A stretch of DNA of 64,000 nucleotides. It comes from an uncultured Flavobacteriales bacterium. Lineage in GTDB: Bacteria; Bacteroidota; Bacteroidia; Flavobacteriales_D; CAJJDF01. The position numbers and the translations under genes are program-made. Below, in pieces: positions 4,307-22,351 of this stretch. The stretch covers positions 4,801-68,800 of the forward strand of contig CAXIAX010000002.1 in the NCBI GenBank assembly GCA_964021785.1, in the 5' to 3' direction. Position 1 is the stretch's first letter. Each line of letters begins with the position of its first letter. Below the pieces are notes generated by a model. That model saw nothing but the letters and a program-made list of their open reading frames with translations. It searched no databases and was not told where the DNA came from.

Positions 4307-4330
4307 TGTAATTTTTTTTTAAATTGAAAA

Positions 4331-5533: not shown

Positions 5534-5567
5534 ATTATTTTATAAGGTTTATTAATAGAATAAAGAG

Positions 5568-6908: not shown

Positions 6909-6933
6909 TTGATGTAATTCTACATTTAGAATG

Positions 6934-6941
6934 CAAACTTA
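6934..6941 (-). promoter_or_regulatory. Candidate Bacteroidota -7 promoter box (TAAGTTTG) for the nqr operon
   Basis: The plus strand reads caaactta, which is TAAGTTTG on the minus strand and matches TAnnTTTG. It sits about 26 nt upstream of the nqrA ATG. Confidence 0.35.
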
Positions 6942-7090
6942 TGAAAAGGAAAAATTATTTAATAATTCTTACCCCTATTTTTTGCTCTGTCACTACAACA
7001 TTTGCCTATTTATAATCAATCTAAATAAGAAGAATTCATATTTGTGGATTAATCTTAATTTGGATTAAAGAATCTAAACAAACAATTGTA

Positions 7091-7098
7091 TATATTTG
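7091..7098 (+). promoter_or_regulatory. Candidate -7 promoter box (TATATTTG) for the CBS-type synthase gene
   Basis: Matches TAnnTTTG, 35 nt upstream of the ATG at 7133. Confidence 0.35.
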
Positions 7099-7132
7099 CA
7101 AAATATTAAACAGAAAGACACCCAAAAATCCT

Positions 7133-8488
7133 ATGAAATACTACAATAATATTCTTGAAACCATTGGAAACACTCCTTTAGTTAAACTTAATGTATTAAC
7201 TAAAGAAATTGATGCATTGGTATTGGCTAAAGTTGAAACTACTAATCCAGGAAACTCTGTAAAAGACAGAATGGCCTTGAAAATGATTGAGGATGCTGAG
7301 AAAAATGGAAACCTTAAACCTGGTGGAACACTTATAGAAGGTACTTCTGGTAATACTGGTATGGGACTTGCCTTGGCTTGTATCATTAAAGGATATAAAT
7401 TAATATGCGTATTGAGCGACAAGCAATCCAAAGAGAAAATGGATATCTTGAGAGCTGTAGGTGCCGAAGTTGTAGTTTGTCCGACTAACGTAGATGCAGA
7501 TGACCCAAGGTCTTATTATAGTGTATCAAAAAGATTGGCTGAAGAAACACCAAATAGCTGGTACGTGAACCAATACGATAACTTATCGAACAGAGCTGCT
7601 CATTACGAAAGTACTGGTCCAGAGATTTGGGAACAAACTGAAGGAAAAATCACTCACTTTGTTGTTGGTGTTGGTACTGGAGGAACTATTTCTGGAGTTG
7701 GGAAATATTTGAAAGAAAAAAATCCAGACATAAAAATTATTGGAATAGATACGTATGGTTCGGTATTTAAAAAATACCACGAAACTGGAATTTTTGACGA
7801 AGCAGAAATATACCCTTATATAACGGAAGGAATTGGGGAAGATATTTTACCAAAAAACGTAGACTTTAGTGTTATTGATCATTTTGAGAAAGTAACGGAT
7901 AAAGATGCTGCAATCATGACACCAAGAATTGCCAAAGAAGAAGGGATTTTTGTTGGAAACTCTGCAGGTTCTGCGGTAAAAGGAATGTTGCAAATGAAAC
8001 ACATGTTCAAGAAAGATGATGTGGTTGTTGTACTGTTTCATGACCACGGAAGTAGATACGTAGGTAAATTCTTTAACCAAGACTGGATGAAAGAAAGAGG
8101 ATTTGTAGAAAACAAAGAAACTACGGCTCAAGACATCATTAGCACAGAAGGAAACTTAGTGATAGCAAATCATGACGAATCAATTAGTTCTGTAGTTGAG
8201 AAAATGGCTAGATTTAGTATTTCTCAATTTCCTGTATTCAATGGAAAAGAAATTGTAGGTTCTATTAGCGAAACTAATATTATCAATCATTTATTCAACA
8301 GCCCTGATGCAAAGAGAGACAGCATAGAGTCTATTCTTTCTCCTGCTTTTCCTGTAGTGGCATTGAACACAAAAATGGAAGACATATCTAAAATGATTAC
8401 CAAAGAAAATGCAGCTGTAATGGTACAAAATGAAGATGATTCTTACAGCATTATTACTAAACAAGACTTGATAAAAGCAATATCATAA
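7133..8488 (+). CDS. PLP-dependent cysteine synthase / cystathionine beta-synthase with a C-terminal tandem CBS-domain pair
   Basis: 451 aa with the PLP-lysine motif NPGNSVKDR and the GTSGNTG and GVGTGGTISG loops. The C-terminal ~120 aa has a CBS-pair pattern. Confidence 0.85.
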   Translation: MKYYNNILETIGNTPLVKLNVLTKEIDALVLAKVETTNPGNSVKDRMALKMIEDAEKNGNLKPGGTLIEGTSGNTGMGLALACIIKGYKLICVLSDKQSKEKMDILRAVGAEVVVCPTNVDADDPRSYYSVSKRLAEETPNSWYVNQYDNLSNRAAHYESTGPEIWEQTEGKITHFVVGVGTGGTISGVGKYLKEKNPDIKIIGIDTYGSVFKKYHETGIFDEAEIYPYITEGIGEDILPKNVDFSVIDHFEKVTDKDAAIMTPRIAKEEGIFVGNSAGSAVKGMLQMKHMFKKDDVVVVLFHDHGSRYVGKFFNQDWMKERGFVENKETTAQDIISTEGNLVIANHDESISSVVEKMARFSISQFPVFNGKEIVGSISETNIINHLFNSPDAKRDSIESILSPAFPVVALNTKMEDISKMITKENAAVMVQNEDDSYSIITKQDLIKAIS

Positions 8489-8492
8489 TAAT

Positions 8493-10295
8493 TTGAGCGA
8501 AACAAAAAATATAAGCCTACTGAAAAGAATTATGGTTTTTCAGAAACCATATAAATTGATGTTTTGGCTAACCGTTTCTGGTACCATACTAAATTCAATT
8601 TTAGCACCCATAAGACCCATTATTATTGGTTTTATGATAGATAAATTTGTAATGAAATCATCTAGTTTCAAAGGGGCCTCTGGCCTGCTAGATGATTTCA
8701 ATACTTCTTTAGCGCCAGATAACGGATTTTTGTATTGGACAATTGTGGCTTTGGGTACTGTGATTATTGAAGCTCTTTTGAGGTTTGCAACCGTGTATTA
8801 CACCAATTTAATTGGACAAAACATTATTGCAGATATTCGTGAGAAACTATTCAATCACATTATCCAATTCAAAACTCAATATTTTGACAAAAACCCAATA
8901 GGGAAATTGGTTACTAGATTAGTTTCTGATGTAGAAGCGGCTTCCGAAATTTTCTCTAACGGGATTATTACCATAGCCGGAGATTTACTTGGGCTTATTC
9001 TTGTTATTACCTTTATGTTTATAGAAAACTGGGTATTTGCCCTTATGATTCTATTGCCTCTTCCCCTCCTATTTTGGGCAACCAATATTTTTAAAAATGC
9101 GATCAAAAAAGCCTACCAACTAGAAAGTTCGCAGGTATCTAAACTGAATACGTTTGTACAAGAAAGAATTACAGGAATGAGTATTCTTCAACTTTTTTCT
9201 CGTGAACAAAATGAATACAAGGAATTTACAGAAATAAACAAAGGGCACAGAAACGCACACATTAAGTCCGTTTGGGCCTATTCTATCTTCTTTCCTGTGG
9301 TAGAGATTTTGAGCTCCATTTCTATTGCTTTTGTAATCTTTTATGCCTCTTATCAAATAATAGATCGCCCAATAGATGAGGCCAGTACAGGACAATTAAT
9401 TGCATTTATTCTTTGGGTAAATATGCTGTACAGACCTATTAGAATGCTTGCCGATAAATTTAATGTGATACAAAGAGGATTGGTGAGAGCCAAAAATATT
9501 TTTGAAGTTTTGGATGATAACCAAATTATTAACTCCAAAAGTGAAGGTCCTACCAACACAACTTTTAAAGGAGAAGTTTCATTTAAAAACGTGTGGTTTG
9601 CCTACAATGATCCCGATTATATCTTAAAAGATATTTCTTTTGATATTGCAGCAGGACAAACTGTAGCATTTGTAGGAGCTACTGGTGCAGGGAAATCTAG
9701 TATTATCAATATCTTGAGCCGTTTTTATGAATACCAAAAAGGAAGCATAACGGTTGATGGAAAAGATTTGAGAGAGCTCACGCTTGAAGACATCAGACAA
9801 AACATTGCTGTTGTATTGCAAGATGTATTTTTATTTTCAGATTCTATCTTGAACAACATCACCCTAAAAGATCCTACTATTACCAGAGAACAAGTGATAG
9901 AAGCTTCCAAATTTGTAGGGTTACATGATTTTATCATGAAATTGCCAGGAGATTACGATTACAATGTAAAAGAAAGAGGTGCAGCATTATCTACAGGGCA
10001 AAGGCAATTAATTTCGTTTGTGAGAGCTTATGTTTACAACCCTAAGATTCTTATTTTGGACGAAGCCACTTCTAGTATCGATACCGAAACAGAAGAACTT
10101 ATTCAAACTGCCATTGAGAAACTAACCAAGGGAAGAACTTCTATTTTGGTTGCTCACAGATTATCTACCATTAAAAATGCAGATAAAATCATTGTACTGG
10201 ACAAAGGAAAACTAATGGAACAAGGAAACCACGAAGAGCTTCTTGCTCAGAATGGTATCTACAAGAATTTATACGAAATTCAGTTTGAGGATTAA
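8493..10295 (+). CDS. ABC transporter, fused permease/ATPase (MsbA-like exporter)
   Basis: 600 aa with a six-TM N-terminal half, Walker A GATGAGKSS, signature LSTGQRQ and Walker B ILILDEATS. The start is TTG at 8493; an alternative ATG lies at 8532. Confidence 0.9.
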   Translation: MSETKNISLLKRIMVFQKPYKLMFWLTVSGTILNSILAPIRPIIIGFMIDKFVMKSSSFKGASGLLDDFNTSLAPDNGFLYWTIVALGTVIIEALLRFATVYYTNLIGQNIIADIREKLFNHIIQFKTQYFDKNPIGKLVTRLVSDVEAASEIFSNGIITIAGDLLGLILVITFMFIENWVFALMILLPLPLLFWATNIFKNAIKKAYQLESSQVSKLNTFVQERITGMSILQLFSREQNEYKEFTEINKGHRNAHIKSVWAYSIFFPVVEILSSISIAFVIFYASYQIIDRPIDEASTGQLIAFILWVNMLYRPIRMLADKFNVIQRGLVRAKNIFEVLDDNQIINSKSEGPTNTTFKGEVSFKNVWFAYNDPDYILKDISFDIAAGQTVAFVGATGAGKSSIINILSRFYEYQKGSITVDGKDLRELTLEDIRQNIAVVLQDVFLFSDSILNNITLKDPTITREQVIEASKFVGLHDFIMKLPGDYDYNVKERGAALSTGQRQLISFVRAYVYNPKILILDEATSSIDTETEELIQTAIEKLTKGRTSILVAHRLSTIKNADKIIVLDKGKLMEQGNHEELLAQNGIYKNLYEIQFED

Positions 10296-10310
10296 GCATT
10301 TATCCTAATC

Positions 10311-10420
10311 CCTCTCCTCTTACTTTTCTTCATTTTCTAACGAATTTCACTACCCATTCGCCAAATTATTCTGTCTTTTTGGGAACTATAATTTAGTGGA
10401 AACCTCTATATTCGTTTTAG
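10311..10420 (+). repeat. Copy 1 of a ~108-bp intergenic element (95 bp perfect core at 10324-10418); attC-like candidate
   Basis: Positions 10324-10418 are identical base for base to 12410-12504. The element begins TTCTAAC (10335-10341) and ends GTTTTAG (10414-10420). The outer stem AACGAAT/ATTCGTT plus the inner pairs TTCAC/GTGGA and CCAAA/TTTGG give an imperfect ~85-nt hairpin. Confidence 0.8.
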
Positions 10421-10444
10421 AACAAAAAACTAATTAGAATTTAT

Positions 10445-10458
10445 TTTAGTTAACTAAA
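10445..10458. promoter_or_regulatory. 14-bp perfect palindrome TTTAGTTAACTAAA upstream of the WYL regulator gene (candidate operator)
   Basis: The palindrome is read directly from the sequence. It lies 51 nt upstream of the ATG at 10509. Confidence 0.3.
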
Positions 10459-10508
10459 CCAGTGCCAAAATTATATTTTTAATTTAAAATACTGTAATTA
10501 CATTAAAA

Positions 10509-11198
10509 ATGGAATATACCGAAGTAAATAGATTGTCTAGATTAACAGCCATGTTAATTCAATTTCAGACGAAGCGAATTATTACAGCAACTGAATTATC
10601 TCAAAAATTTCAAGTTAGCAAAAGGACAATTTACCGAGATGTAAAAGCATTGGAACAAGCTGGTGTGCCTATTTTGACAGAAGAAGGAAAAGGATATACA
10701 CTAATGGAAGGTTATAAAATACCTCCAGTAATGTTTACCGAAAAACAAGCAAATGCCTTAATTCTTGCAGAACAGTTAGTCTTAAATAGCAAGGATGCTT
10801 CATTCGTAAAAGATTATTCGGAAGCTATTGATAAAATCAAATCAATTTTAAAGTATAGTATAAAAGATAAAGCAAATTTACTTACTGATAGAACGCAATA
10901 TAACGAAGTTAAAAATCAAGTAAAAAACAGTGACAATCTATCCGATTTACAAAACGCACTTACTAATTATAACCTTGTGCGAATAGATTACACAAACAAG
11001 GAAAATACAGTAACAACAAGACTCATAGAGCCTTTTGCCATTATAAATTCAACAAATTGGTATTTAGTAGCTTGGTGTCGTTTGCGTAATGAATTTCGTT
11101 TTTTTAGACCTGATAGAATTCAGAAAATGGAAATTTTATCCGAAAATTTTGAACCTCACAATATGACTTTACAGGAATATTTTGATAAATATCATTAG
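10509..11198 (+). CDS. YafY-type transcriptional regulator (N-terminal HTH plus WYL domain)
   Basis: 229 aa. The N-terminus RLSRLTAMLIQFQTKRIITATELSQKFQVSKRTIYRDVKALEQAGVPI is the DeoR/HTH_11 pattern of YafY/WYL regulators. The C-terminus contains WYLVAWC. Confidence 0.75.
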   Translation: MEYTEVNRLSRLTAMLIQFQTKRIITATELSQKFQVSKRTIYRDVKALEQAGVPILTEEGKGYTLMEGYKIPPVMFTEKQANALILAEQLVLNSKDASFVKDYSEAIDKIKSILKYSIKDKANLLTDRTQYNEVKNQVKNSDNLSDLQNALTNYNLVRIDYTNKENTVTTRLIEPFAIINSTNWYLVAWCRLRNEFRFFRPDRIQKMEILSENFEPHNMTLQEYFDKYH

Positions 11199-11239
11199 TT
11201 ATTTTTGACCCTTGCCATAAGGCTGTCATAGACCCAATT

Positions 11240-11247
11240 TACTTTTG
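11240..11247 (+). promoter_or_regulatory. Candidate -7 promoter box (TACTTTTG) for the hydrolase gene
   Basis: Matches TAnnTTTG, 30 nt upstream of the ATG at 11277. Confidence 0.3.
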
Positions 11248-11276
11248 CATCATATTCATTTTAAACAATAAAAAAT

Positions 11277-12239
11277 ATGACAAACGTAATTAACAAAAAA
11301 TTCAATTTGATTGAATTTCCAATTTCCACAATGATTTCTATCAATGGTATAGAATTAGAAGTTTTTGAAGCAGGTAAACAAAATACAGGTAATCCCATTG
11401 TACTTTGCCACGGGTTTCCAGAAAACGCATTTTCTTGGCGTTTTCAAATCCCCGAACTAGTTAAAGCTGGCTATCACGTTATTGTTCCAAACCAAAGAGG
11501 TTATGGAAAATCATCTTGGCCAACGGAAATATCAGCTTATGGTATTGAAAATTTAACAGGAGACCTAGTTGCTCTACTCGACCACTACGGATATGAAAAA
11601 GCTACCTTTATAGGTCACGATTGGGGTGCTAATATTGTTTGGAGTCTAGCATTATTACATCCTGAGAAAGTAAATAAAATAATAAATTTGGCTTTACCCT
11701 ATATGCAAAGAGGAGAAAAACCATGGATAGAGTTTATGGAAGAAATATTTGGACCAGATAATTATTTTGTTCACTTTAATAGACAAGTAGGAGTCGCAGA
11801 TGCTATTTTGGATGAAAACAAATCTCAATTTCTTGGTAATTTGTTCCGAAAAAATGTACCTCTTGCAATGCCTGAACCAGGTATGATGATGATTAATCTT
11901 GCAAAAGCAGAAAAATCACTTGGAGACCCAATAATGAGCGAAAGTGAGTTAGCTGTTTATGTTTCTGCTTTCGAAAAATCTGGATTTACAGGAGGAATAA
12001 ATTGGTATAGAAATCTTGACCAAAATTGGCATTTATTGACAGATGTGAATCCTATCATTAAACACTCTGCACTTATGATTTATGGAAACCAAGATATGAT
12101 TCCTAAATCTGAAAATTTAACAGATTTTGTTCCTAATGTAGAAGTAGTTAGTTTAGATTGTGGTCATTGTATACAGCAAGAACTTCCCGAAGAAACGAAT
12201 AAAACGATTTTAAAATGGCTAGCTAGCCATAAATCGTAA
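11277..12239 (+). CDS. Alpha/beta hydrolase, epoxide hydrolase / haloalkane dehalogenase-like
   Basis: 320 aa with an HGFPE oxyanion-hole motif, a GHDWG nucleophile elbow and a C-terminal GHC catalytic-His region. Confidence 0.8.
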   Translation: MTNVINKKFNLIEFPISTMISINGIELEVFEAGKQNTGNPIVLCHGFPENAFSWRFQIPELVKAGYHVIVPNQRGYGKSSWPTEISAYGIENLTGDLVALLDHYGYEKATFIGHDWGANIVWSLALLHPEKVNKIINLALPYMQRGEKPWIEFMEEIFGPDNYFVHFNRQVGVADAILDENKSQFLGNLFRKNVPLAMPEPGMMMINLAKAEKSLGDPIMSESELAVYVSAFEKSGFTGGINWYRNLDQNWHLLTDVNPIIKHSALMIYGNQDMIPKSENLTDFVPNVEVVSLDCGHCIQQELPEETNKTILKWLASHKS

Positions 12240-12396
12240 AATAATATATAAGCATAGCATATTAATGCCAAATAGATGGACACAGCTAATTTTAAAAAAT
12301 TAGTTGATGAGAAAAATCTGTTTGGCATTTTTATAAAATATCAACCCAAAAGCAGAGTACATCTCTGTAATGGAGAAATAGGAAGAATTCCCAACC

Positions 12397-12506
12397 CCTC
12401 TCCTTCTAATTTTCTTCATTTTCTAACGAATTTCACTACCCATTCGCCAAATTATTCTGTCTTTTTGGGAACTATAATTTAGTGGAAACCTCTATATTCG
12501 TTTTTA
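12397..12506 (+). repeat. Copy 2 of the ~108-bp intergenic element (95 bp perfect core at 12410-12504)
   Basis: Identical to 10324-10418, with a degenerate 13-nt 5' extension (10 of 13 matches). It begins TTCTAAC (12421-12427), ends GTTTTTA (12500-12506) and sits 13 nt upstream of the ATG at 12519. Confidence 0.8.
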
Positions 12507-12518
12507 AATAAAATCACC

Positions 12519-13196
12519 ATGAATAAAACCCTAAAACAAGCTAGTTTTCTTCTTCTATTTTCCTTTGTTTTGTTTGGTTGCAACAGCAATAAAACAAACA
12601 ATAAATTTGAAATGCAACAAGGAGACATATTGTTTCAAAATACAGGGACAGATGAAATAGACAATGCCATAAAAGATGTAACGGCTACTGCCTTGGCAAA
12701 AAACTATTCGCATGTGGGGATTGCCATGCAAAAAGAAGGAAAATGGTTTGTAGTAGAAGCCATACCTAAAAAAGGAATTTGCCAAACTCCTTTACAAAAA
12801 TTCCTAGACAGGCATACAAACAAATTGAACAAATCGCAGACTACTGTAGCCAGACTAGACAGCTATTACCAGCCCTATATTGCTACGGCTATAACTTACG
12901 GACTAGAAAGATTAAATACACCTTATGATGAAGTGTTTTTGTGGGACGATTCTTCTTATTATTGCTCCGAATTAGTGTATAAAATGTTCTCTACTCAAGA
13001 TTTACCCAAAGATTCTATTCCTTTTCTTACTCACCCAATGACTTTTAACGACAGCACAGGAAACCCAATGCCTAGCTGGGAATCGTATTACAAAAAACGC
13101 AATCAGCCAATTCCTGAGGGAATTGAAGGTACAAATCCTAACCTGATGGCGAGCAGTCCGCTTATCACTTTTGTGCACGATTACGAGAACGAATAA
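12519..13196 (+). CDS. YiiX-family permuted papain-like (NlpC/P60 superfamily) lipoprotein
   Basis: 225 aa with a lipoprotein signal (LFGC) and the motifs GDILFQ, SHVGIA and YCSELVY, which are characteristic of YiiX/DUF830-type enzymes. Confidence 0.6.
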   Translation: MNKTLKQASFLLLFSFVLFGCNSNKTNNKFEMQQGDILFQNTGTDEIDNAIKDVTATALAKNYSHVGIAMQKEGKWFVVEAIPKKGICQTPLQKFLDRHTNKLNKSQTTVARLDSYYQPYIATAITYGLERLNTPYDEVFLWDDSSYYCSELVYKMFSTQDLPKDSIPFLTHPMTFNDSTGNPMPSWESYYKKRNQPIPEGIEGTNPNLMASSPLITFVHDYENE

Positions 13197-13380
13197 AAGA
13201 TAATATTACTAATTATTAACTAGTTGTAAACAGTTATTCTTCTTTCTTACTAAGAAAAAACTCCCTCACCTCCCACTACTACTTACAATCCAAAGATTCT
13301 ACTTCTTTTGGACTGAGCAATAACTCATGCCATACTTTTTCATAAAAGAAAAAGTTTATTTTATTTATCTATATTTGTCT

Positions 13381-13466
13381 CATAACAAAACAACTACCTA
13401 TAAAGCTAGTAAACTATATCCCGCGATATAGAGTATACTGTTAACTATATACTGTTGTTCTAAGCC
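13381..13466 (+). repeat. Repeat-dense junction element: CATAAC box, nested palindromes, tandem TATACTGTT repeats and a GTTCTAA box
   Basis: CATAAC at 13381-13386. The palindrome ctatat-cccgcg-atatag spans 13414-13431. The direct repeat tatactgtt occurs at 13434-13442 and 13448-13456, and aactatat at 13412-13419 and 13443-13450. GTTCTAA lies at 13457-13463. Confidence 0.6.
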
Positions 13467-13477
13467 ATTACCTAAAT

Positions 13478-14029
13478 TTGGAAATTGAAAATAAAATATT
13501 ATTAGTATTGGATTTAGACGAAACTCTAATTCATGCAACTGAAAGAAAACTCGAAATTGATTTTGACTTTCAGTATGCTGACTATTTTATTTATCGAAGA
13601 CCACACCTTGAATGGTTTCTGGAGTCTATGAGTGCTGATTTTAAATTAGCTGTTTGGTCCTCTGCTGACGATAAATATGTTGAAGAAATAGTTGAAAGAA
13701 TAAAACCTCCAAGTATTAAGTTTGAATTTGTTTGGGGTAGAACTCGTTGTACAACTAAAAGAGATTATGAACTTGATGAATACGTTCACGAAAAAAGACT
13801 TAAAAAAGTAAAAAAACAAGGGTTTTCAATTGAGCAGATATTGATGGTAGACGATTCTCCTGAAAAGACAAAAGATAATTATGGAAACGCAATTTATGTG
13901 ACAGCTTTTGAGGGAAAACAAAATGATACTGAATTAAAAACTCTTGCGGAATATTTAAACTCAATTAAAAGCACTTCAAATGTGAGAAGTTTTGAGAAAA
14001 GAGGATGGAAAAATAACAAAACGGCTTAG
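13478..14029 (+). CDS. FCP1/NIF (NLI-interacting factor)-like HAD-superfamily phosphatase
   Basis: 183 aa. The catalytic DxDxT motif is near the N-terminus (LVLDLDETLIH), followed by RPHLEWFL...LAVWSS and MVDDSP, matching the CTD-small-phosphatase fold pattern. The only start codon available is TTG. Confidence 0.7.
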   Translation: MEIENKILLVLDLDETLIHATERKLEIDFDFQYADYFIYRRPHLEWFLESMSADFKLAVWSSADDKYVEEIVERIKPPSIKFEFVWGRTRCTTKRDYELDEYVHEKRLKKVKKQGFSIEQILMVDDSPEKTKDNYGNAIYVTAFEGKQNDTELKTLAEYLNSIKSTSNVRSFEKRGWKNNKTA

Positions 14030-14217
14030 AACACTATATATAGCAAATTGGGCGATTAGTGTTTAATCGAAAGGTATGTGTCTATTTGCAAAGTCGCCAA
14101 ATCTTTTGATTTGGTATTAAAGAAAAAAATTAAAACAAAATAAAAAGATTTGGCTTGTGGCTAAACTGAAAGTAATACTTATTTTCTGCCCAACTTGCCA
14201 TATATTTAACGTTATGC
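14023..14217 (+). repeat. Intergenic element A: ~190-nt imperfect hairpin closed by AAC...GTT (attC-like candidate)
   Basis: It starts inside the upstream stop codon (ggcTTAGAAC, 14023-14032). Arm 14036-14052 pairs with arm 14189-14205 (15 of 17 Watson-Crick pairs by my count). AAC 14030-14032 pairs with GTT 14211-14213. It ends GTTATGC (14211-14217). Confidence 0.65.
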
Positions 14218-14237
14218 AAAAATTTATTGCAGCAAAC

Positions 14238-14693
14238 ATGAAAACTTTACCGACAATACTGACAATACTGACAATTTTAATATTTTCATTTTTTTGTAGT
14301 TGTGTTGACAGAAACCCGACTAAAAACCAAGACAATGATGGAACGACTGATTCTATAATTAATTGCTATGAACTGATAGGACAATTACCTAACCTGACAA
14401 TAGAGAACTCAAAATATTATGGCAAAGTCTTTTTGGAAGTTTTTTATGATTCAACTAAGAATTCCTTTGAAAAATATTTAATTGTGAGATCAACAATATG
14501 GAAGAAATCTGACAAATCAGTGTTTAGCCATTATGATTCTGATACAAAAATGTCTGTACCTGAGATTTATACTGAAATTATAAAAGAGATTAAAAACCGA
14601 GTTGACAATTCAGACCTTAAACTGAAACGAAAAGAAAATATTGAAAAATGCGAAGACGTTAATTGGCTCATTTTACCTGTTGAAGTTAAATAA
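14238..14693 (+). CDS. Hypothetical small lipoprotein
   Basis: The track ORF 14157..14693 is trimmed to the in-frame ATG at 14238, which gives MKTLPTILTILTILIFSFFCSC, a lipoprotein signal. The upstream extension lies inside repeat element A. Confidence 0.6.
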   Translation: MKTLPTILTILTILIFSFFCSCVDRNPTKNQDNDGTTDSIINCYELIGQLPNLTIENSKYYGKVFLEVFYDSTKNSFEKYLIVRSTIWKKSDKSVFSHYDSDTKMSVPEIYTEIIKEIKNRVDNSDLKLKRKENIEKCEDVNWLILPVEVK

Positions 14694-14699
14694 AATCTG

Positions 14700-14722
14700 T
14701 GCATAACAAATGATATAGCAAA
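14700..14722 (+). repeat. Truncated copy of the left arm of element A/B
   Basis: tGCATAACaaatgatatagcaaa resembles 14026-14047 (ttagaacactatatatagcaaa). It ends abruptly 4 nt before the ATG at 14727. Confidence 0.5.
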
Positions 14723-14726
14723 CATC

Positions 14727-15476
14727 ATGAAAAAAGCGATTATACTTCTTTTATTTTTCAGTTTAAAGGTGAATGGATTTGGGCAAAAACCAAAACTATT
14801 TATTCATGAGGATGATACCTGTTTTGTTTTACCTGATAGTTTAAAAATGGAAAATTTCTCTTATTTCAACAAACCAAATCAATCTTTTTCTAACGGAATT
14901 TGGATACAAATTATAGACAGTAGTTTTTTCTGTAAGTTCACTTTAAAGAATAACATTTTACACGGAAAATATACCTATTTCCGACCTGAAATTGAAGCTC
15001 AAGGAAACTACACAAATGGAACTAGACAAGGACCATATTTTAGATATAATAAATCAGGTGATATAGTTTACAAGTGTTATTTTGAATCAGGAAACCAATT
15101 AGATTCATACTTTTATTACAACAATAGAAATTTAAAAAAAAGATTTCTTAACACTTCCGATACTACAAGTTTTCATTCATATTATTATTTGAACGGTTTT
15201 AAAAAATCTGAAGGGACATATTTTAACAAATATAATGTTAAAACATCCGAGTTTGACTTTTGGAAAATTGGAAAATGGTCAAATTGGTTTGGTAATGGTG
15301 TGATTAAATCTTCCGGTTATTATAATGACGGCAAAAAGGATTCTGTATGGAAGTATTATAACGAAAAAAGCGAATTTGAAAAATGTGAATATTACAAAAA
15401 AGGAATATTAATTAAATCTTCGTTTACATCAATTATTAATATAGAAGGAAAAGAAATAGGAACACCTGAAAAATAG
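14727..15476 (+). CDS. MORN-repeat-variant protein, YwqK (antitoxin/immunity)-like, with signal peptide
   Basis: 249 aa with repeated G-x-Y/W-x-x-Y/F-x-x-G motifs (HGKYTYFRPE, RQGPYFRYNKSGD, GKWSNWFGNG, KKDSVWKYYNEKSE) typical of the MORN_2/YwqK family. Confidence 0.6.
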   Translation: MKKAIILLLFFSLKVNGFGQKPKLFIHEDDTCFVLPDSLKMENFSYFNKPNQSFSNGIWIQIIDSSFFCKFTLKNNILHGKYTYFRPEIEAQGNYTNGTRQGPYFRYNKSGDIVYKCYFESGNQLDSYFYYNNRNLKKRFLNTSDTTSFHSYYYLNGFKKSEGTYFNKYNVKTSEFDFWKIGKWSNWFGNGVIKSSGYYNDGKKDSVWKYYNEKSEFEKCEYYKKGILIKSSFTSIINIEGKEIGTPEK

Positions 15477-15477
15477 A

Positions 15478-15668
15478 CATTTTCTAACATTATGTATAAA
15501 ACATAGCTGGTAAGTGCTAGTCCGAAAGGTTTATGCCTATTTATAAAGTCCACCAAGTCTTTTTAATTTGGCTTTAGAACGAAAGAGATAAAACAAAATA
15601 AAAAGTTTTGGCTTAGTGCTTAATCGAAAATTAATAACTTTTTAATCACCAACTCTTCTTCTACTAAC
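15478..15668 (+). repeat. Intergenic element B: homologue of element A with a decayed right arm
   Basis: It aligns with element A over ~150 nt and shares the perfect 17-mer taaaacaaaataaaaag (15589-15605 versus 14131-14147). It begins cattttctaac (15478-15488), an 11-mer shared with 10331-10341 and 12417-12427. The right end reads ...ctaacCCT instead of ...ttaacGTT. Confidence 0.65.
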
Positions 15669-15725
15669 CCTCCCGTAAGGCAATTCCTCTAAGTCCGTTC
15701 AATAAAGAATACGCTAGCGCCTTGT

Positions 15726-16901
15726 ATGAAACAATCCAAACTAATACTGCCCATCATTGTAATTGCACAGTTCTGTTGCACTTCTTTGTGGTTTGCGGGC
15801 AATGGAGTAATGAGCGAACTCATTCTCAATTTTCAGCTTCATCCCACTGATGGCGTTCACCTCACTTCTTCGGTTCAGTTTGGGTTTATCTTAGGTACTC
15901 TAATCTTTGCGCTCTTAACTATTGCCGATAAATTTTCTCCTTCCAAAGTGTTTTTGGTCTGTGCTTTGCTAGGTGCAGGTTTCAATGCAGGTATAATTTG
16001 GGAAGGCAACAATTTGTATAGTATACTTTTGCTCCGTTTTACTACCGGTTTTTTTCTTGCAGGAATCTACCCCGTAGGAATGAAAATAGCCGCAGATTAT
16101 TACGAAAAAGGACTAGGAAAAACCCTAGGCTTTTTGGTGGGTGCTTTGGTTATTGGTACTGCATTTCCTCATTTGGCAAAAGACCTTACTCATTCCTTTC
16201 CTTGGAAATATGTGCTTATCCTCACTTCTACTCTTGCCGTATTGGGTGGTATCCTCATGAGTACCGTTCCTGATGGTCCTTTTCGTAAACCAGGAAAAAA
16301 ATTGAATATCTCTGCTTGTTTTGGTGTGTTTAAGAACCGAAATTTTAGTGCGGCTGCCCTTGGTTATTTTGGTCACATGTGGGAGTTGTATGCTTTTTGG
16401 GCATTTGTTCCTTTCATTCTTAGCACTTACCAAGCGCTTCACCCTACTGCTGTATTTAGTATTCCTCTTTGGTCGTTTTCTGTTATTGCCATTGGAGGAA
16501 TTGCCAGTGTACTCTCAGGATTCCTTGCCACAAGATTGGGAACAAAAAAAATTGCCTTTACTTCCTTATTCCTTTCGGGAGTGTGTTGCTTAGTTTCTCC
16601 TTTGCTATTCTTGGTGGGTTCGCCCTCTGTGTTTCTTGCATTTTTGTTGTTTTGGGGAATGGTAGTAGTAGCAGATTCTCCTCTATTCTCTACGTTAGTA
16701 GCACAAAACACTACTCCAGAAATGACCGGAACTGCACTAACCTTAGTAAATTGTATTGGATTTGCGGTAACAATTGTGAGCATACAAATCCTCAATCTAT
16801 TGCTTACTTCCATAGATTCTACTTACATTTATACTCTATTAGCAATTGGGCCAATAATTGGATTAATCGCTTTGTCTCGCAATAAGAAACAACTCGGCTA
16901 A
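15726..16901 (+). CDS. MFS transporter
   Basis: 391 aa with about 12 predicted TM helices and a typical MFS loop (GIYPVGMKIAADYY). Confidence 0.8.
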   Translation: MKQSKLILPIIVIAQFCCTSLWFAGNGVMSELILNFQLHPTDGVHLTSSVQFGFILGTLIFALLTIADKFSPSKVFLVCALLGAGFNAGIIWEGNNLYSILLLRFTTGFFLAGIYPVGMKIAADYYEKGLGKTLGFLVGALVIGTAFPHLAKDLTHSFPWKYVLILTSTLAVLGGILMSTVPDGPFRKPGKKLNISACFGVFKNRNFSAAALGYFGHMWELYAFWAFVPFILSTYQALHPTAVFSIPLWSFSVIAIGGIASVLSGFLATRLGTKKIAFTSLFLSGVCCLVSPLLFLVGSPSVFLAFLLFWGMVVVADSPLFSTLVAQNTTPEMTGTALTLVNCIGFAVTIVSIQILNLLLTSIDSTYIYTLLAIGPIIGLIALSRNKKQLG

Positions 16902-16951
16902 TAAATCCACAAATTGCAGTAGATTTTGAATCACAAAAAGACCGCTACGCA

Positions 16952-17512
16952 ATGAAGAATTATTTCTTTTCTATCTTATTTATCGTTTCTAGTTTTGTTG
17001 CTTTTTCGCAATCTAGCGAAAATGATTCTGTGGTTACCCCTACTGTTCTCACTTCAAAAAATATGTACTCTTACCAAAATAACGGTTGGGAATTGATGGA
17101 GTATGCCGAGAGAAAATTCCTACTCAATTTATCCAACAAAGAGTACGTTTTGTTATTCCGTATCACTTGCAAACAAGAAGGTAAAAAGCCTAATTTCTTA
17201 ATCGAATACTCGAACAATTACAGAGATGGAAACTACGGAAGAATAGATTTTACGAATTCAAGAGATGAGCGATTCGAGAAAACAGTTATCCTTATAGATG
17301 AAGTGGAAACGGCTAATCCATTTGAAAAATCGGACGAAAAAGGGCTACAAGAATTTATCAATTTATTGAAAAAAGGAAAAACGCTTACGTTTCAGTTCTA
17401 CGACCTAGAGTACAATCCCGAAACAGGAAAAGAGGAATTAGAACTAAACCGAGCCCTTAATTTTAAGCTAGAAAATAGCGAACTATTGGATCATGCAGTA
17501 GACTGCGAATAA
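16952..17512 (+). CDS. Hypothetical secreted protein
   Basis: 186 aa with the signal peptide MKNYFFSILFIVSSFVAFSQ. I recognise no family. Confidence 0.55.
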   Translation: MKNYFFSILFIVSSFVAFSQSSENDSVVTPTVLTSKNMYSYQNNGWELMEYAERKFLLNLSNKEYVLLFRITCKQEGKKPNFLIEYSNNYRDGNYGRIDFTNSRDERFEKTVILIDEVETANPFEKSDEKGLQEFINLLKKGKTLTFQFYDLEYNPETGKEELELNRALNFKLENSELLDHAVDCE

Positions 17513-17550
17513 TCACAGCATGAGCCACACCACTAACCAATACTTAGTAT

Positions 17551-18309
17551 ATGTTTAGACACCAAGGCAAAAGCAGAACATTAAAACACAACCTTAGGAT
17601 TGCTACGATTTTATCTTTCGTGGCAGGAATTGTAAACATTACAGGATTCCTTGCTTTTAGTCAATTAACGACTAATGTAACCGGTCATTTTGCTTTATTT
17701 ATAAATGACATTACCCAGTTTCAGTTTTGGAAAGGATTCTTATTTTTCCTTTATATTTTCTCTTTTTTAATCGGTTCTTTTCTCTCTAGTTTTTTGATAG
17801 AAAAATACCGAGAAAGCAAAAAGATAAATGTATTTCTATTGCCCACCCTGCTCGAAGCTTTTATCTTATTTACGATAGGAGTTTTAAGCAATTTTATTCA
17901 ACCTTTCTCTGCCGATCTTGTTATTTGCTTGTTGCTGTTTGCAATGGGTGTACAAAACTCATTTGTAACAAAAATATCCAATGCAGTAGTAAGAACCACT
18001 CACCTCACAGGTTTGTTTACCGATTTGGGAATTGATGTATCTCAATTATTCTTCAAGAAATACAAGAGTCAAAAGAAATTGCTCAAGGCAAATATAAAAC
18101 TGAGGTTATACATCATTACTTTCTTTTTTGTGGGAGGATTAATAGGTGGTTTTTTCTTCTCCAAAATAGGATTGGGACTAAACACACTAAGCATTGGTGC
18201 TGTAATTCTTCTTGCGAGTTTATTTTATGATGATTTTAGATACAAAGTGATAAAAACCCGAAGGTCGTTCCATCAAAAAAGAAAAAAAGGGAATAAGGGA
18301 AAGCTTTGA
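17551..18309 (+). CDS. YoaK/DUF1275-family membrane protein
   Basis: 252 aa and multi-TM. The motifs TTNVTGH and VRTTHLTG are characteristic of DUF1275. Confidence 0.6.
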   Translation: MFRHQGKSRTLKHNLRIATILSFVAGIVNITGFLAFSQLTTNVTGHFALFINDITQFQFWKGFLFFLYIFSFLIGSFLSSFLIEKYRESKKINVFLLPTLLEAFILFTIGVLSNFIQPFSADLVICLLLFAMGVQNSFVTKISNAVVRTTHLTGLFTDLGIDVSQLFFKKYKSQKKLLKANIKLRLYIITFFFVGGLIGGFFFSKIGLGLNTLSIGAVILLASLFYDDFRYKVIKTRRSFHQKRKKGNKGKL

Positions 18310-18394
18310 GATTTATCAAATCCTAAAAATTCTTAAATAGGAATAAGTCGTGTACTATTCTTTCAATTCTTGGGTTATCCTTATTCAAGTTTAT

Positions 18395-18402
18395 TACCTT
18401 TG
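18395..18402 (+). promoter_or_regulatory. Candidate -7 promoter box (TACCTTTG)
   Basis: Matches TAnnTTTG, 40 nt upstream of the ATG at 18442. Confidence 0.3.
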
Positions 18403-18441
18403 TATTGAGTTAGAAAATAACTGGATCCAATCCCATTACCT

Positions 18442-20076
18442 ATGATTCTAAATCCAAGTAAAAGAAGAAAAAAAGCATTTGGCCTTGCCTTTAAAATTAT
18501 TGGTAGCTATTTGAAATTAAGAATTTTAAAGAAATTAATCTCTTCTGACTCTTATCAGAAAAAACTAATTGTTCTTCACAACAAAAACGCAATTAGAATT
18601 AAAGAAACCATTTTAGAATTGAATGGTTTATTCATCAAAGTAGGACAATTATTATCTATACTATCGGGTGTAATTCCCAAGGAATTTGGCGAAGCCTTAG
18701 AATCCCTTCAAGACAAAACTCCTCATTCCCCGTTTGCTATTACTAAAAAAAGTATAGAAAACGAACTAAATGATTCGCTAGAGAATCTATTTGCCGAATT
18801 TGCCGAAACTCCTATTGCCTCTGCCTCTATAGGGCAAGTGCACAAAGCAAAACTAAAAACGGGAGAACTAGTGGCTGTAAAAATTCAGCATCCCTACATT
18901 AAAGATTTGGCAAAAGTAGATTTGGATATCATTGAAAGGCTTCACAAAAAAATCAGCTTTTTCTTCAAGGTAAATGGATTAGACCACGCATTTAATCAGG
19001 TGAAACTGATGATTTACGAAGAGCTTGATTACACCAAAGAAGCAAGTAGAATGCAAGAAATAAAGGAGAACTGTAAAGAAATTAAGGGAGTTTTGATTCC
19101 TACGATTCACAGTGCATATAGCTCTCCGCTTATCTTAACGGCTACTTTTTATGAAGGAGTAAAAATTACCGATACCGTACAAATGGCAGAATGGGGAATA
19201 AACTCCAATGAGATTGCAGAGAGATTGGTATTTACATATTGCGAAATGCTCATGAACCATGGGGTGTATCATGCAGATCCTCACCCTGGGAATTTGATGA
19301 TAAACAAAGAAGGAAATCTTATTATTCTTGATTTTGGTGCTGTGGGCGAATTAAAAGAAGAAATGCGAGCAAATATCCCTCCATTTATTCAAGCGATATT
19401 GGCCAAGGACAATGACAAAATTATGGAATGCCTGCAAAAAATGGAATTCATAAGTAAGGAAAAAACAAACGACAAAGCCACCAAACAGATTGTAGAAGCA
19501 CTTACCGAGTTCTTGCAAGATGGTATAAATATGGAAAGCTTCAATTTTGAAAACATCAAAGAATCGAGCTTATTCAAATTGCAAAAAAAACTGAGTTTAA
19601 AAGAGCTTACCACAAGTCTTGATGTTCCTAAAGATTGGATATTACTGGAAAGAACGCTTCTTTTATTGTATGGAATATGTACTACCATAGCTCCAGAATA
19701 CAAAGCTATGAGTACGGTAAAACCCTACCTCAAAAAACTAGTATTGAAAGATGGAGGATTACAAAAAATAATTGTAGATACCCTAAAAACCCAAGCTACT
19801 ACCCTATTTGCTTTACCAAAAAAAATAGATGCTTATTTATCTAAAGCCAACCAAGGCGAATTGGAATTTGAAATTTCAAACTTGGATAGTAACACCAATA
19901 AACTCTATGCTGTGGGTCAGCAATTGTTATTTGGACTACTGGCAGGAATATTCCTAATTGGTGCAATGGTGAGCAGCACTTATCAAGCTACAGGCTACCA
20001 AACTCTGTTTCATGTATTGGCAACTGTATGTGGCGTATTTTTGATAGTGAGTGTTATAAAAAATCGTAAAAAATAA
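18442..20076 (+). CDS. ABC1/UbiB-family atypical protein kinase (AarF domain)
   Basis: 544 aa with ASASIGQVHKA, VAVKIQHP and HADPHPGNL motifs and C-terminal TM helices. Confidence 0.85.
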   Translation: MILNPSKRRKKAFGLAFKIIGSYLKLRILKKLISSDSYQKKLIVLHNKNAIRIKETILELNGLFIKVGQLLSILSGVIPKEFGEALESLQDKTPHSPFAITKKSIENELNDSLENLFAEFAETPIASASIGQVHKAKLKTGELVAVKIQHPYIKDLAKVDLDIIERLHKKISFFFKVNGLDHAFNQVKLMIYEELDYTKEASRMQEIKENCKEIKGVLIPTIHSAYSSPLILTATFYEGVKITDTVQMAEWGINSNEIAERLVFTYCEMLMNHGVYHADPHPGNLMINKEGNLIILDFGAVGELKEEMRANIPPFIQAILAKDNDKIMECLQKMEFISKEKTNDKATKQIVEALTEFLQDGINMESFNFENIKESSLFKLQKKLSLKELTTSLDVPKDWILLERTLLLLYGICTTIAPEYKAMSTVKPYLKKLVLKDGGLQKIIVDTLKTQATTLFALPKKIDAYLSKANQGELEFEISNLDSNTNKLYAVGQQLLFGLLAGIFLIGAMVSSTYQATGYQTLFHVLATVCGVFLIVSVIKNRKK

Positions 20077-20083
20077 TTTTAGT

Positions 20084-21953: not shown

Positions 21954-21983
21954 TTTTATATTTAGCCCCAACCCAATTCTAAA

Positions 21984-22016
21984 AGGACTTGTTTTTACAA
22001 CAAGTCCTTTTTTTTT
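21984..22016 (+). terminator. Rho-independent terminator after the desaturase gene
   Basis: aggacttgtt/aacaagtcct forms a 10-bp stem with a 5-nt loop, followed by T9. Confidence 0.8.
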
Positions 22017-22255
22017 GTGCCTTATATAAAACAAGCCCAAGGTTGTTACATTTCATTCATTGCTACACTAATAATAGGTAAATACAAAAGAAGCTTTAAA
22101 ACGTCTAAAATCGATATCTTAAATAGATTGAAGCCTTCATTATTGGATGACCAATTACCTTTTTCTACTCTACCCTACCTTTTTGGAATATCGCTATGGC
22201 TATTCCAATTACTGACAAAGCGATAAGTTCATATGGAAAGTTGAACTTAGTTAGC

Positions 22256-22296: not shown

Positions 22297-22351
22297 CAAT
22301 ATAACTAGGCTTGTTGTGAATTAGTGTTAAAACTAATTCTCTGTATTAAAT

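What the first reader, a model, noticed from the sequence alone, without database searches (positions are those of the whole stretch)
10296..15725. Integron-like or rAID-like gene-cassette array with no recombinase in the window, between a core ABC exporter and an MFS gene
1. Layout. Five same-strand units with unrelated functions sit here: WYL regulator plus hydrolase, YiiX-like lipoprotein, FCP1/NIF phosphatase, small lipoprotein, and YwqK/MORN protein. Related non-coding elements separate them.
2. Element starts. Three elements open 0-8 nt after the upstream stop codon with a YYYAAC-type box: TTAGAAC at 14026 (overlapping the stop), GCATAAC at 14701 and TTCTAAC at 15482. TTCTAAC at 10335 lies 40 nt after its stop. 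TTCTAAC at 12421 and CATAAC at 13381 lie about 180 nt after theirs.
3. Element ends. Each closes with a GTT box 13-21 nt before the next start codon (88 nt for the first). The boxes are GTTTTAG at 10414, GTTTTTA at 12500, GTTCTAA at 13457 and GTTATGC at 14211.
4. Interpretation. This is the architecture of integron attC sites: an inverse core RYYYAAC and a core GTTRRRY, with AAC/GTT the invariant part. It also recalls the repeat-punctuated orphan-immunity gene arrays (rAID) described in Bacteroidales. YwqK-type proteins are a known immunity/antitoxin family.
5. Missing parts. No integrase, attI or transposase is in the window, so this would be a recombinase-less (CALIN-type) cluster. To my knowledge such cassette arrays are not a described feature of Flavobacteriia.
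6. Caveats. The boxes deviate from the purine/pyrimidine consensus. The element families are heterogeneous. Only two cassettes obey the own-R'/R'' complementarity rule.
Basis: partly seen in the sequence, partly recalled or inferred. Interest (0 to 1): 0.78.

Follow-up and report, generated by a model that had tools for sequence, protein, structure and literature searches.

The report
Integron-like gene cassettes in a flavobacterium
Part of this region (13457-15669) is a small, decaying array of mobile gene cassettes bounded by about 190-nt folded recombination sites, a family widespread in marine Flavobacteriia and linked elsewhere to a Xer-type recombinase that lacks the integron-integrase domain; the rest of the proposed array is not supported.

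Summary

**What is real**
- There are two unrelated repeat pairs: A1/A2 (125 nt, 94% identical) and B1/B2 (about 190 nt, about 75% identical).
- B belongs to a large family in marine Flavobacteriia. Its members sit in co-oriented arrays between short ORFs.
- Each member starts at ...AAC and ends at CGTT.
- A 14-bp end-to-end stem covaries strongly.
- The sites obey the integron "cassette rule".
- In 5 of 5 loci fetched around a recombinase of this family, co-oriented B sites follow a Xer/IntI-like tyrosine recombinase. That enzyme lacks the IntI-specific insertion.

**Decisive evidence**
Window 13457-14213 (NIF phosphatase ORF plus B1) recurs at 88-92% nucleotide identity in three other genomes, one of them Cellulophaga baltica. 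The match breaks exactly at GTT on both sides.

**Verdict**
- 13457-15669 is a three-cassette, recombinase-less remnant. It carries NIF, a lipoprotein and a MORN-like protein. One site is intact, one is a stub and one is degenerate.
- The WYL-hydrolase and YiiX units and the A repeats show no cassette signature.
- The system works like an integron and resembles Bacteroidales rAID-1. It fails strict integron membership.
- I found no description of it in Flavobacteriia.

The parts
13376..13459 (+). Left junction of the array: a short imperfect palindrome (IG3) ending in GTT at 13457-13459, where the first cassette begins.
   Evidence: The bottom strand folds with z -3.1. The sequence is not similar to B-family ends (p about 0.5-0.7). 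The boundary at 13457 is fixed by comparison with L119, L120 and L121. Sister-strain unitig L002 diverges right after this GTT.
13457..14213 (+). NIF cassette: the mobile unit from GTTCTAAGCC to ...TTTAACGTT, made of ORF 13478-14029 plus site B1.
   Evidence: It is 88-92% identical at nucleotide level in L119 (Cellulophaga baltica), L120 and L121, from exactly 13457 to 14214/5. The flanks are unrelated in all four genomes. The start GTTCTAAGCC is the reverse complement of 14023-14032 (10/10).
13478..14029 (+). NIF/FCP1-like HAD phosphatase ORF (183 aa). Its stop codon overlaps the left box of B1.
   Evidence: Pfam NIF 1.4e-34. Homologues 91-92% identical at protein level sit inside cassette arrays.
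14023..14213 (+). B1, an intact attC-like site. Left box GGCTTAGAAC 14023-14032; stem arms 14038-14053 and 14188-14203; inner hairpin 14096-14107 / 14143-14154; CGTT with GTT at 14211-14213.
   Evidence: nhmmer 183 bits. All 14/14 and 12/12 predicted pairs form. As single-stranded DNA it folds at -25.4 kcal/mol with z -4.2. Family covariation is shown.
14211..14707 (+). Lipoprotein cassette: start GTTATGCA, ORF 14229-14693, end box TGCATAAC at 14700-14707.
   Evidence: The start and end boxes are 8/8 complementary, or 6/7 by the family test (my reading, scored as). Only 2.3% of random box pairs reach 6/7.
14700..14726 (+). Stub of a site (GCATAAC AAATGATATAGCAAAC). Only the left box and the start of the 5' arm remain, and the next ORF follows directly.
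   Evidence: It resembles the left ends of B sites only weakly (p = 0.1). A comparably collapsed site is seen at L119 12587.
14727..15476 (+). 249-aa secreted or lipoprotein-like ORF, distantly MORN_2-like (YwqK-type). This is the third cassette's cargo.
   Evidence: No direct family hit. It is 26.5% identical (7e-8) to the L099 cassette protein that hits MORN_2 at 1e-14.
15478..15669 (+). B2, a degenerate site. The left box CATTTTCTAAC and the inner hairpin are kept. The 3' arm has decayed and CTC (15670-15672) replaces GTT.
   Evidence: nhmmer 89.9 bits, model positions 3-187. Only 8/14 stem pairs form and there is no GTT. The 98%-identical strain L001 has a 20-nt deletion here.
10303..10427 (+). 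A1, a 125-nt direct repeat upstream of the WYL gene. It is not part of the cassette array and is listed because the finding included it.
   Evidence: 94% identical to A2 with a 97-nt identical core. It has no relatives elsewhere. It fails the boundary, fold and cassette-rule tests.
12389..12513 (+). A2, the second copy, ending 6 nt before the YiiX start codon. It is not part of the cassette array.
   Evidence: Same evidence as for A1. Contig L118 joins the flank upstream of A2 to an A copy followed by WYL.

Best explanation
Window 13457-15669 is a short, recombinase-less and partly decayed array of three mobile gene cassettes. The cassettes carry a NIF phosphatase, a small lipoprotein and a MORN-like protein. 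They belong to an integron-like system of marine Flavobacteriia.

**Structure of a cassette**
- Each cassette is an ORF followed by a recombination site of about 190 nt.
- The site begins with a box ending in AAC and ends with CGTT.
- Its two ends pair into a 14-bp covarying stem around an inner hairpin.

**Inferred mechanism**
- By analogy with integron attC sites, the site folds as single-stranded DNA.
- A tyrosine recombinase cuts it within GTT.
- Cassettes are then excised as circles and re-inserted at GTT.

**Inferred enzyme**
- The likely enzyme is a Xer-like recombinase with a 112-aa N-terminal extension and no IntI-specific insertion.
- In other genomes it lies directly upstream of such arrays and in the same orientation.
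- It is absent from this window.

**State of this array**
- Here the array is frozen. B1 is intact, the next site is reduced to a stub and B2 has lost its 3' arm and its GTT.

**What lies outside the array**
- The A1/A2 repeats that bracket WYL-hydrolase are a separate local duplication within the same variable islet (10296-20083).

**Shown versus inferred**
- Shown: family membership, array context, covariation, the cassette rule and exact cassette boundaries across four genomes.
- Inferred: the single-stranded substrate, the cleavage position within GTT and the identity of the recombinase.
For: **Spread of the family**
- A B-element pattern hits 27 metagenome stretches where about 1 would be expected by my estimate. 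Twenty-six of the 27 are B sites by the nhmmer model; 22 were recovered at full length with sharp ends at AAC and CGTT and unrelated flanks.
- An nhmmer model finds co-oriented arrays: 5 sites in L093 and L104, 4 in L099, at least 12 in L113 and L121, and 10 in L120.

**Cassette context**
- 40 of 54 sites have a co-oriented ORF stop within 30 nt upstream. 39 of 55 have a co-oriented ATG within 60 nt downstream. On the opposite strand the figures are 1/46 and 1/36.

**Folded structure**
- 11 of the 14 terminal-stem pairs show compensatory changes.
- 91.8% of cells pair, against 30-43% when partners are slid.
- The covariation score is 0.418 against 0.04-0.08 for the slid controls, and 0 of 500 shuffles reach it.

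**Cassette rule**
- 26 of 40 adjacent site pairs match at 6/7 or better beyond GTT, against 2.3% of random pairs. Boxes of the same site match at the random level, 2.5/7.
- In the window the matches are 10/10 for NIF and 8/8 for the lipoprotein.

**Mobility**
- The NIF cassette is 88-92% identical in L119, L120 and L121 from 13457 to 14214/5 only.

**Recombinase**
- It scores 238 bits on NF040815 (cut-off 220) and 213 bits on the integron-integrase model TIGR02249 (cut-off 265).
- Between the blocks aligned to VchIntIA it has 25 residues where VchIntIA has 67.
- In 5 of 5 recombinase loci, B sites follow co-oriented.

**Site condition**
- B1 is intact and B2 is degenerate.
Against: - No recombinase lies in the window, and the source genome could not be searched. 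Activity in this host is therefore unknown.
- The single-stranded mechanism is by analogy only. Covariation shows that pairing is selected, but not in which molecule.
- IG3, the left junction, is not a recognisable family member.
- The start of the third cassette is missing, so its cassette rule cannot be checked.
- Only one of the three cassettes (NIF) has a copy elsewhere. The window proteins were checked only against the fetched loci, and exact look-ups for the NIF and 249-aa products found nothing.
- The link between recombinase and sites is co-localisation in five loci, not an experiment.
Confidence: 0.8

Rival explanations
1. All five units from 10296 to 15725 form one cassette array, with A1, A2 and IG3 as attC-type sites of other families.
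For: - A has an AAC...GTT imperfect inverted repeat 86 nt long, within the attC size range.
- The 11 nt CATTTTCTAAC of A equal the left box of B2.
- Contig L118 shows a junction from the hydrolase flank to an A copy to WYL. This is what an excised circle or a tandem copy would give.
- IG3 folds with z -3.1, and its GTT is a proven boundary.
Against: - A1/A2 similarity starts about 32 nt before the AAC box and runs about 10 nt past GTT, so the boxes are not the repeat boundaries.
- The fold is no better than shuffled sequence (z -1.1 and -0.8).
- The cassette rule gives 3/7 for A1 to A2 and about 0-1/7 for A2 to IG3 (my reading of the boxes, scored as).
- A 20-mer of A has no hit in genome, metagenome or viral collections.
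- A shows no similarity to the ends of family sites (p > 0.9).
- YiiX is followed by about 180 nt of non-coding DNA before IG3.
Confidence: 0.12
2. The A repeats are an ordinary local duplication of an intergenic promoter/operator segment, or the footprint of unequal crossing-over. The WYL-hydrolase pair was inserted or amplified by homologous recombination, not by site-specific recombination.
For: - There are only two copies, 94% identical, and they are unique to this lineage.
- A2 ends 6 nt before the YiiX start codon and A1 lies upstream of the WYL regulator gene.
- The L118 junction fits a tandem duplication by unequal crossing-over.
- The whole stretch 10296-20083 is a variable islet relative to L005.
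Against: - No clear Bacteroidetes-type promoter is evident in A by eye (my reading; no tool result).
- The 11-nt identity with the B2 left box is unexplained.
- L118 has 2.8x coverage and may be a misassembly.
Confidence: 0.55
3. The cluster is a canonical integron remnant (CALIN) whose sites are substrates of a true IntI integrase.
For: - The sites have AAC/GTT ends, obey the cassette rule, are co-oriented with their ORFs and start an ORF shortly after the site.
- One array protein hits the integron-cassette family Hfx_Cass5.
- NCBI names the recombinase "tyrosine recombinase/integron integrase".
Against: - The associated recombinase lacks the IntI-specific insertion and scores below the TIGR02249 cut-off.
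- It is co-oriented with the cassettes.
- The sites are about 190 nt against 57-141 nt for attC (range from my own knowledge).
- Published integron surveys report almost none in Bacteroidetes (PMC9024848).
Confidence: 0.05
4. The B elements are generic intergenic repeats (REP/MITE-like, terminators or a small RNA) with no role in gene mobility.
For: They are highly conserved, structured and intergenic. No Rfam family matches.
Against: - They show a strict orientation and position relative to ORF ends.
- Complementarity holds between adjacent sites but not within a site.
- The same ORF-plus-site unit occurs in four genomes with breaks at GTT.
- They are linked to a recombinase.
Confidence: 0.03

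Closest known systems
Integron gene cassettes and attC sites; CALIN clusters (Cury et al. 2016, PMC4889954; IntegronFinder 2.0, PMC9024848)
   Same: - Short, co-oriented ORFs are each followed by an imperfect-palindrome site with ...AAC at its 5' end and GTT... at its 3' end.
- Pairing is conserved while sequence varies.
- The cassette start is complementary to the cassette's own end box.
- Identity between copies breaks at GTT.
- Arrays without a nearby integrase exist.
   Different: - The sites are about 190 nt with a conserved inner hairpin.
- Sequence is highly conserved within subfamilies.
- The recombinase has no IntI-specific domain, carries a 112-aa N-terminal extension and is co-oriented with the cassettes.
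- The strict RYYYAAC/GTTRRRY consensus is not kept.
- The hosts are Flavobacteriia, where integron surveys report essentially none.
rAID-1 (recombinase-associated acquired interbacterial defence) of gut Bacteroidales (Ross et al., bioRxiv 10.1101/471110; 10.1101/2025.05.03.651265)
   Same: - A Xer-family tyrosine recombinase lies at the 5' end.
- It is followed by co-oriented short genes of low G+C and by repetitive intergenic sequences "reminiscent of integrons".
- The cargo includes immunity-type families: MORN_2 and a weak SUKH hit here.
   Different: - rAID-1 is described only in Bacteroidales and is defined by at least 44% identity to BF9343_RS08045. That could not be tested here.
- In the papers I read, the rAID repeats are described only as intergenic sequence motifs. 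Site boundaries, folding and a cassette rule are not mentioned, and the mechanism is called unresolved.
- The cargo here is broader: NIF phosphatase, reverse transcriptase, TIR, AAA_21 and DUF262.
- The window copy has no recombinase.
Polyimmunity loci next to XerC/D recombinases (Zhang et al. 2012, PMC3482391)
   Same: These are strain-variable tandem arrays of small, same-strand genes, sometimes adjacent to a XerC/D recombinase, and are found in Bacteroidetes.
   Different: They are defined by immunity gene content, not by recombination sites. In the passage I read, no site structure is described. Only one of the three window cassettes is immunity-like.

Membership tests
Integron (sensu stricto) | An IntI integrase with the IntI-specific additional domain around patch III | tested here: not met
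   No recombinase lies in the window. The family's recombinase (L095) has 25 residues where VchIntIA has 67 between the aligned blocks. It scores 213 bits on TIGR02249, below the 265 cut-off. Its best solved relative is a XerC-like recombinase of the XerA type (4a8e), aligned without a break.
Integron (sensu stricto) | attC sites: an imperfect palindrome with AAC...GTT cores, where the folded structure rather than the sequence is conserved | tested here: met
   AAC and GTT are kept in 43-44 of 46 sites. The stem has 14 pairs, 11 with compensatory changes, and 91.8% of cells pair against 30-43% in slid controls. B1 folds with z -4.2.
Integron (sensu stricto) | attC length of about 57-141 nt and the RYYYAAC / GTTRRRY consensus; a hit to the attC covariance model | tested here: not met
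   The sites are about 190 nt. None of the window boxes fits the consensus. The attC covariance model itself was not available; Rfam gave nothing.
Integron (sensu stricto) | Cassette rule: the start of a cassette is complementary to its own end box, and boundaries lie at G/TT | tested here: met
   In the family, 26 of 40 adjacent pairs reach 6/7 or better, against 2.3% of random pairs. In the window the matches are 10/10 and 8/8. The NIF cassette breaks at GTT in four genomes.
CALIN (cluster of attC sites lacking an integrase) | At least two sites close together with no integrase nearby | tested here: met
   B1 and B2 lie 1.27 kb apart, with a stub and a junction as well. There is no recombinase in the 64 kb. 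This holds only by analogy, because the sites are not canonical attC.
rAID-1 | A 5' XerD-like recombinase at least 44% identical to BF9343_RS08045 | not testable with these tools
   The reference sequence was not obtainable. The window has no recombinase. The family enzyme is Xer-like.
rAID-1 | Two or more co-directional downstream genes of low G+C with repetitive intergenic motifs | tested here: met
   Three co-oriented ORFs are separated by B-family sites. G+C is 29.0% against 32.2% for the window. The 41% G+C criterion carries no information in a 32% genome.
rAID-1 | Cargo dominated by orphan immunity genes | tested here: inconclusive
   Only the 249-aa ORF is immunity-like, through an indirect MORN_2 link. 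NIF and the lipoprotein are not. Related arrays hold a weak SUKH hit, YcxB and bPH, but also defence-type genes.

The most novel reading that the evidence does not exclude
Marine Flavobacteriia carry a widespread integron-type gene-capture system. In it, a Xer-like tyrosine recombinase without the IntI-specific domain recombines folded sites of about 190 nt at GTT. If so, attC-style cassette recombination is not exclusive to IntI. The same logic may explain how Bacteroidales rAID arrays are built, a mechanism that a 2025 preprint still calls unresolved. The window holds a stranded three-cassette remnant of this system.
Probability: 0.5. Interest if true: 0.85.

Novelty: new variant of a known kind. 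Interest (0 to 1): 0.7.

Why it matters
- Integron surveys report almost no integrons in Bacteroidetes (PMC9024848).
- rAID arrays are known only from gut Bacteroidales, and their assembly mechanism is unresolved (10.1101/2025.05.03.651265).
- The sequence evidence here includes exact boundaries, covariation and cassette-rule complementarity. The same cassette also occurs in a Cellulophaga genome and in this distant Flavobacteriales lineage.
- Together these point to an active cassette-exchange system across marine Flavobacteriia, run by a recombinase that lacks the hallmark integrase domain.
- The evidence supplies concrete sites and a candidate enzyme for experiments. It also supplies a simple sequence model for finding such cassettes, many of which carry defence or immunity genes, in ocean metagenomes.
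- For this window alone the consequence is modest: a small, partly dead array inside a variable islet.

Tried and rejected
- **Rfam.** A scan of 9800-16300 at E<=10 gave only noise.
- **Collection scans with A.** The A 20-mer had zero hits in genome contigs, metagenome contigs and viral contigs, and a B pattern had zero hits in viral contigs. The source genome is therefore not in those collections, and the genome-wide copy number could not be measured.
- **Exact-protein look-ups.** The MFS, NIF, 249-aa and hydrolase products were not on record.
- **Synteny with ABC-exporter relatives.** Only one close relative was found (L005, 77%). It shows a variable islet but contains no B sites.
- **Cassette partner downstream of B2.** None was found.
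- **Similarity to B ends.** IG3, A1 and A2 are not similar to B-family ends.
- **Relaxed nhmmer in the window.** At E<=100 it found no further sites.
- **Direct MORN_2 assignment of the 249-aa ORF.** This failed.
- **Literature.** Searches for a description in Flavobacteriia found none. The library is incomplete, so this is not proof of novelty.
- **Not attempted.** I did not build a covariance model, because nhmmer already separated members cleanly and the candidates of other lengths would not fit such a model.

Full report
**Observation**

The claim that related elements separate all five units does not hold.

Repeat searches within the region and across the 64 kb find only two unrelated pairs:
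- A1 10303-10427 and A2 12389-12513 are 94% identical with a 97-nt identical core. They bracket WYL plus hydrolase.
- B1 (about 14023-14213) and B2 (about 15478-15669) are about 75% identical with gaps. They bracket the lipoprotein and the 249-aa ORF.

The spacers 13197-13477 (IG3) and 14694-14726 (IG5) have no relatives in the window. AAC and GTT each occur 17-18 times per kb, so the boxes alone carry no weight. Rfam gives nothing.

**Context**

The source genome is not in the searchable collections. The nearest relative is a Flavobacteriales MAG (L005), whose ABC exporter is 77% identical.
- L005 is collinear with window 1-10295.
- It then has 1.5 kb with three unrelated small ORFs where the window has 10296-20083.
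- Synteny resumes at 20084.

The variable islet is therefore larger than the finding, and the MFS gene is not core. No homologue of the array recombinase is in the window (tblastn E<=10). Four other integrase, resolvase and transposase queries also found nothing (E<=1).

**The B family**

A 20-base-specified pattern from the conserved centre of B hit 27 stretches of marine metagenome contigs. By my own estimate, about one hit would be expected by chance. Twenty-six of the 27 are B sites by the nhmmer model, and 22 were recovered at full length. Their similarity starts sharply at ...AAC and ends sharply at ...CGTT, and the flanks are unrelated.

An nhmmer profile built from them finds arrays of co-oriented sites 0.25-3 kb apart:
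- 5 sites in L093 and in L104
- 4 in L099
- 10 in L120
- at least 12 in L113 and in L121

The profile finds exactly two sites in the window.

The sites sit in a fixed relation to genes:
- 40 of 54 have a co-oriented stop codon within 30 nt upstream.
- 39 of 55 have a co-oriented ATG within 60 nt downstream.
- On the opposite strand the figures are 1/46 and 1/36.

**Structure**

On 46 distinct sites, RNAalifold predicts a 14-bp stem joining the two ends. Eleven of the pairs show compensatory changes. I then scored that stem together with a 12-bp inner hairpin and the AAC/GTT pair:
- 91.8% of cells pair, against 30-43% when the partners are slid.
- The covariation score is 0.418, against 0.04-0.08 for the slid controls.
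- No shuffle out of 500 reaches it.

B1 forms all 14 and all 12 pairs. As single-stranded DNA it folds at -25.4 kcal/mol with z -4.2. B2 keeps its left box and hairpin, but only 8 of 14 stem pairs form and CTC replaces GTT.

**Cassette rule**

In arrays, the 7 nt after GTT at the right end of one site are complementary to the 7 nt before AAC at the left end of the next site.
- 26 of 40 adjacent pairs match at 6/7 or better, against 2.3% of random pairs.
- The boxes of one and the same site match only at the random level, 2.5/7.

This is the signature of units that circularise and re-insert at GTT, as integron cassettes do.

In the window:
- GTTCTAAGCC at 13457 is the exact reverse complement of GGCTTAGAAC at 14023-14032. 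This is the NIF cassette.
- GTTATGCA at 14211 is the reverse complement of TGCATAAC at 14700-14707. This is the lipoprotein cassette.
- After 14707 only about 20 nt of a site remain before the next ORF.

**Mobility**

The NIF protein has homologues 91-92% identical at protein level in Cellulophaga baltica and in other genomes. There it lies inside long co-oriented arrays of B sites.

At nucleotide level the match to the window is 88-92%. It runs from exactly 13457 to 14214/5. The sequences on both sides are unrelated in all four genomes. In the other direction, the host's ABC exporter is at most 57% identical to anything but L005. The unit 13457-14213 has therefore moved between distant lineages as a discrete cassette.

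A unitig from a sister strain (L002) is identical up to the GTT at 13459 and then differs. This hints at cassette variation, but only two bases support it.

**Recombinase**

In L095 a 380-aa tyrosine recombinase lies upstream of the array and is co-oriented with it.
- It passes NCBIfam NF040815, "site-specific tyrosine recombinase/integron integrase" (238 bits, cut-off 220).
- It fails the integron-integrase model TIGR02249 (213 bits, cut-off 265).
- Against VchIntIA (2a3v) it aligns in two blocks, with 25 residues between them where the integrase has 67. The IntI-specific insertion is therefore absent. Its best solved relative is a XerC-like recombinase of the XerA type (4a8e).
- Homologues 78-97% identical occur in Maribacter, Arenibacter, Pricia, Psychroserpens and Cellulophaga.
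- In all five loci fetched around such a recombinase, B sites follow in the same orientation. One of these is a complete 4-Mb genome (L113) with at least 12 sites.

**The A repeats**

The A repeats show none of these signatures.
- Their similarity runs about 32 nt past the AAC box and about 10 nt past GTT.
- They do not fold better than shuffled sequence.
- They fail the cassette rule, at 3/7 by my reading of the boxes (scored as).
- They do not resemble the ends of family sites.
- They have no relatives in any collection.

Contig L118 joins the hydrolase-downstream flank to an A copy followed by WYL. This fits a tandem duplication or a circle formed between the repeats. At 2.8x coverage it could also be a misassembly.

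I read A as a local duplication within the islet. An 11-nt identity with the B2 left box remains unexplained.

**Comparison with known systems**

The system works like an integron but fails strict membership on three counts: it has no IntI domain, the recombinase is co-oriented with the cassettes, and the sites are about 190 nt long.

In architecture it matches rAID-1 of Bacteroidales. That system has a 5' Xer-family recombinase, co-oriented low-GC genes and repetitive intergenic sequences (10.1101/471110). Its assembly mechanism is still called unresolved (10.1101/2025.05.03.651265). Membership is defined by identity to a B. fragilis protein that I could not obtain.

IntegronFinder 2.0 reports only In0 elements and one complete integron in Bacteroidetes (PMC9024848). 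My literature searches found no description of such arrays in Flavobacteriia. The library is incomplete, so this is not proof of novelty.

**Verdict**

This holds only for 13457-15669, and the evidence is comparative rather than the boxes themselves. The instance in this window is a small, recombinase-less remnant with one intact site. The family it reveals is the more interesting result.

Noticed in passing
L118 (ENA ERZ8868625 NODE_134226) versus window 12263-12513 and 10303-11301: A contig from a 98-99% identical strain joins the region downstream of the hydrolase gene to an A copy and then to the WYL gene. This junction is expected from a tandem duplication or a circular form of the A-WYL-hydrolase unit. 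At 2.8x coverage it could also be a misassembly.
   Followed up: partly
L002 (Logan SRR36548965) versus window 13457-13461: A unitig is identical to the window from 12475 to the GTT at 13459, then reads AG instead of CT. A sister strain may carry a different first cassette at the same junction.
   Followed up: partly
window 21954-26531 and 27758-31349: Two further segments are absent from the nearest relative L005. Each carries a type IX secretion module: PorP/SprF with an OmpA-family protein, plus a CHU_C-tailed cargo protein in the first segment.
   Followed up: partly
window 15726-16901 versus 8493-10295: The MFS transporter is 72% identical to Flavobacteriaceae proteins. The neighbouring ABC exporter is at most 57% identical to anything except L005. 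The right half of the islet may also be horizontally acquired.
   Followed up: no
window 15478-15488, 10331-10341 and 12417-12427: The left box of B2 (CATTTTCTAAC) is identical to 11 nt inside both A repeats. By my rough estimate the chance of this in the region is about 0.004. It is unexplained.
   Followed up: no
L121 486-650, 2527-2691, 3102-3266, 9941-10106, 15092-15258 and 19700-19866; L119 12587-12625: There is a second site subfamily of about 175 nt with the same AAC...CGTT ends but a different stem sequence. There is also a site apparently collapsed to its two boxes (CTACACAAC AATGGTAAC CGTT).
   Followed up: no
L093 4263-9724; L121 4371-6299 and 8141-9294; L110 3297-5062: Cassettes in related arrays encode defence-type proteins: AAA_21 ATPase with a small partner, a DUF262-like protein, TIR/SEFIR, and a reverse transcriptase with an HTH protein. 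This resembles what has been reported for sedentary chromosomal integrons.
   Followed up: no
L119 9935-9983 and window 13400-13459: In both genomes where the NIF cassette is first in its array, the GTT junction is preceded by short AT-rich palindromes rather than a full B site. These may be an attI-like or secondary insertion site.
   Followed up: no
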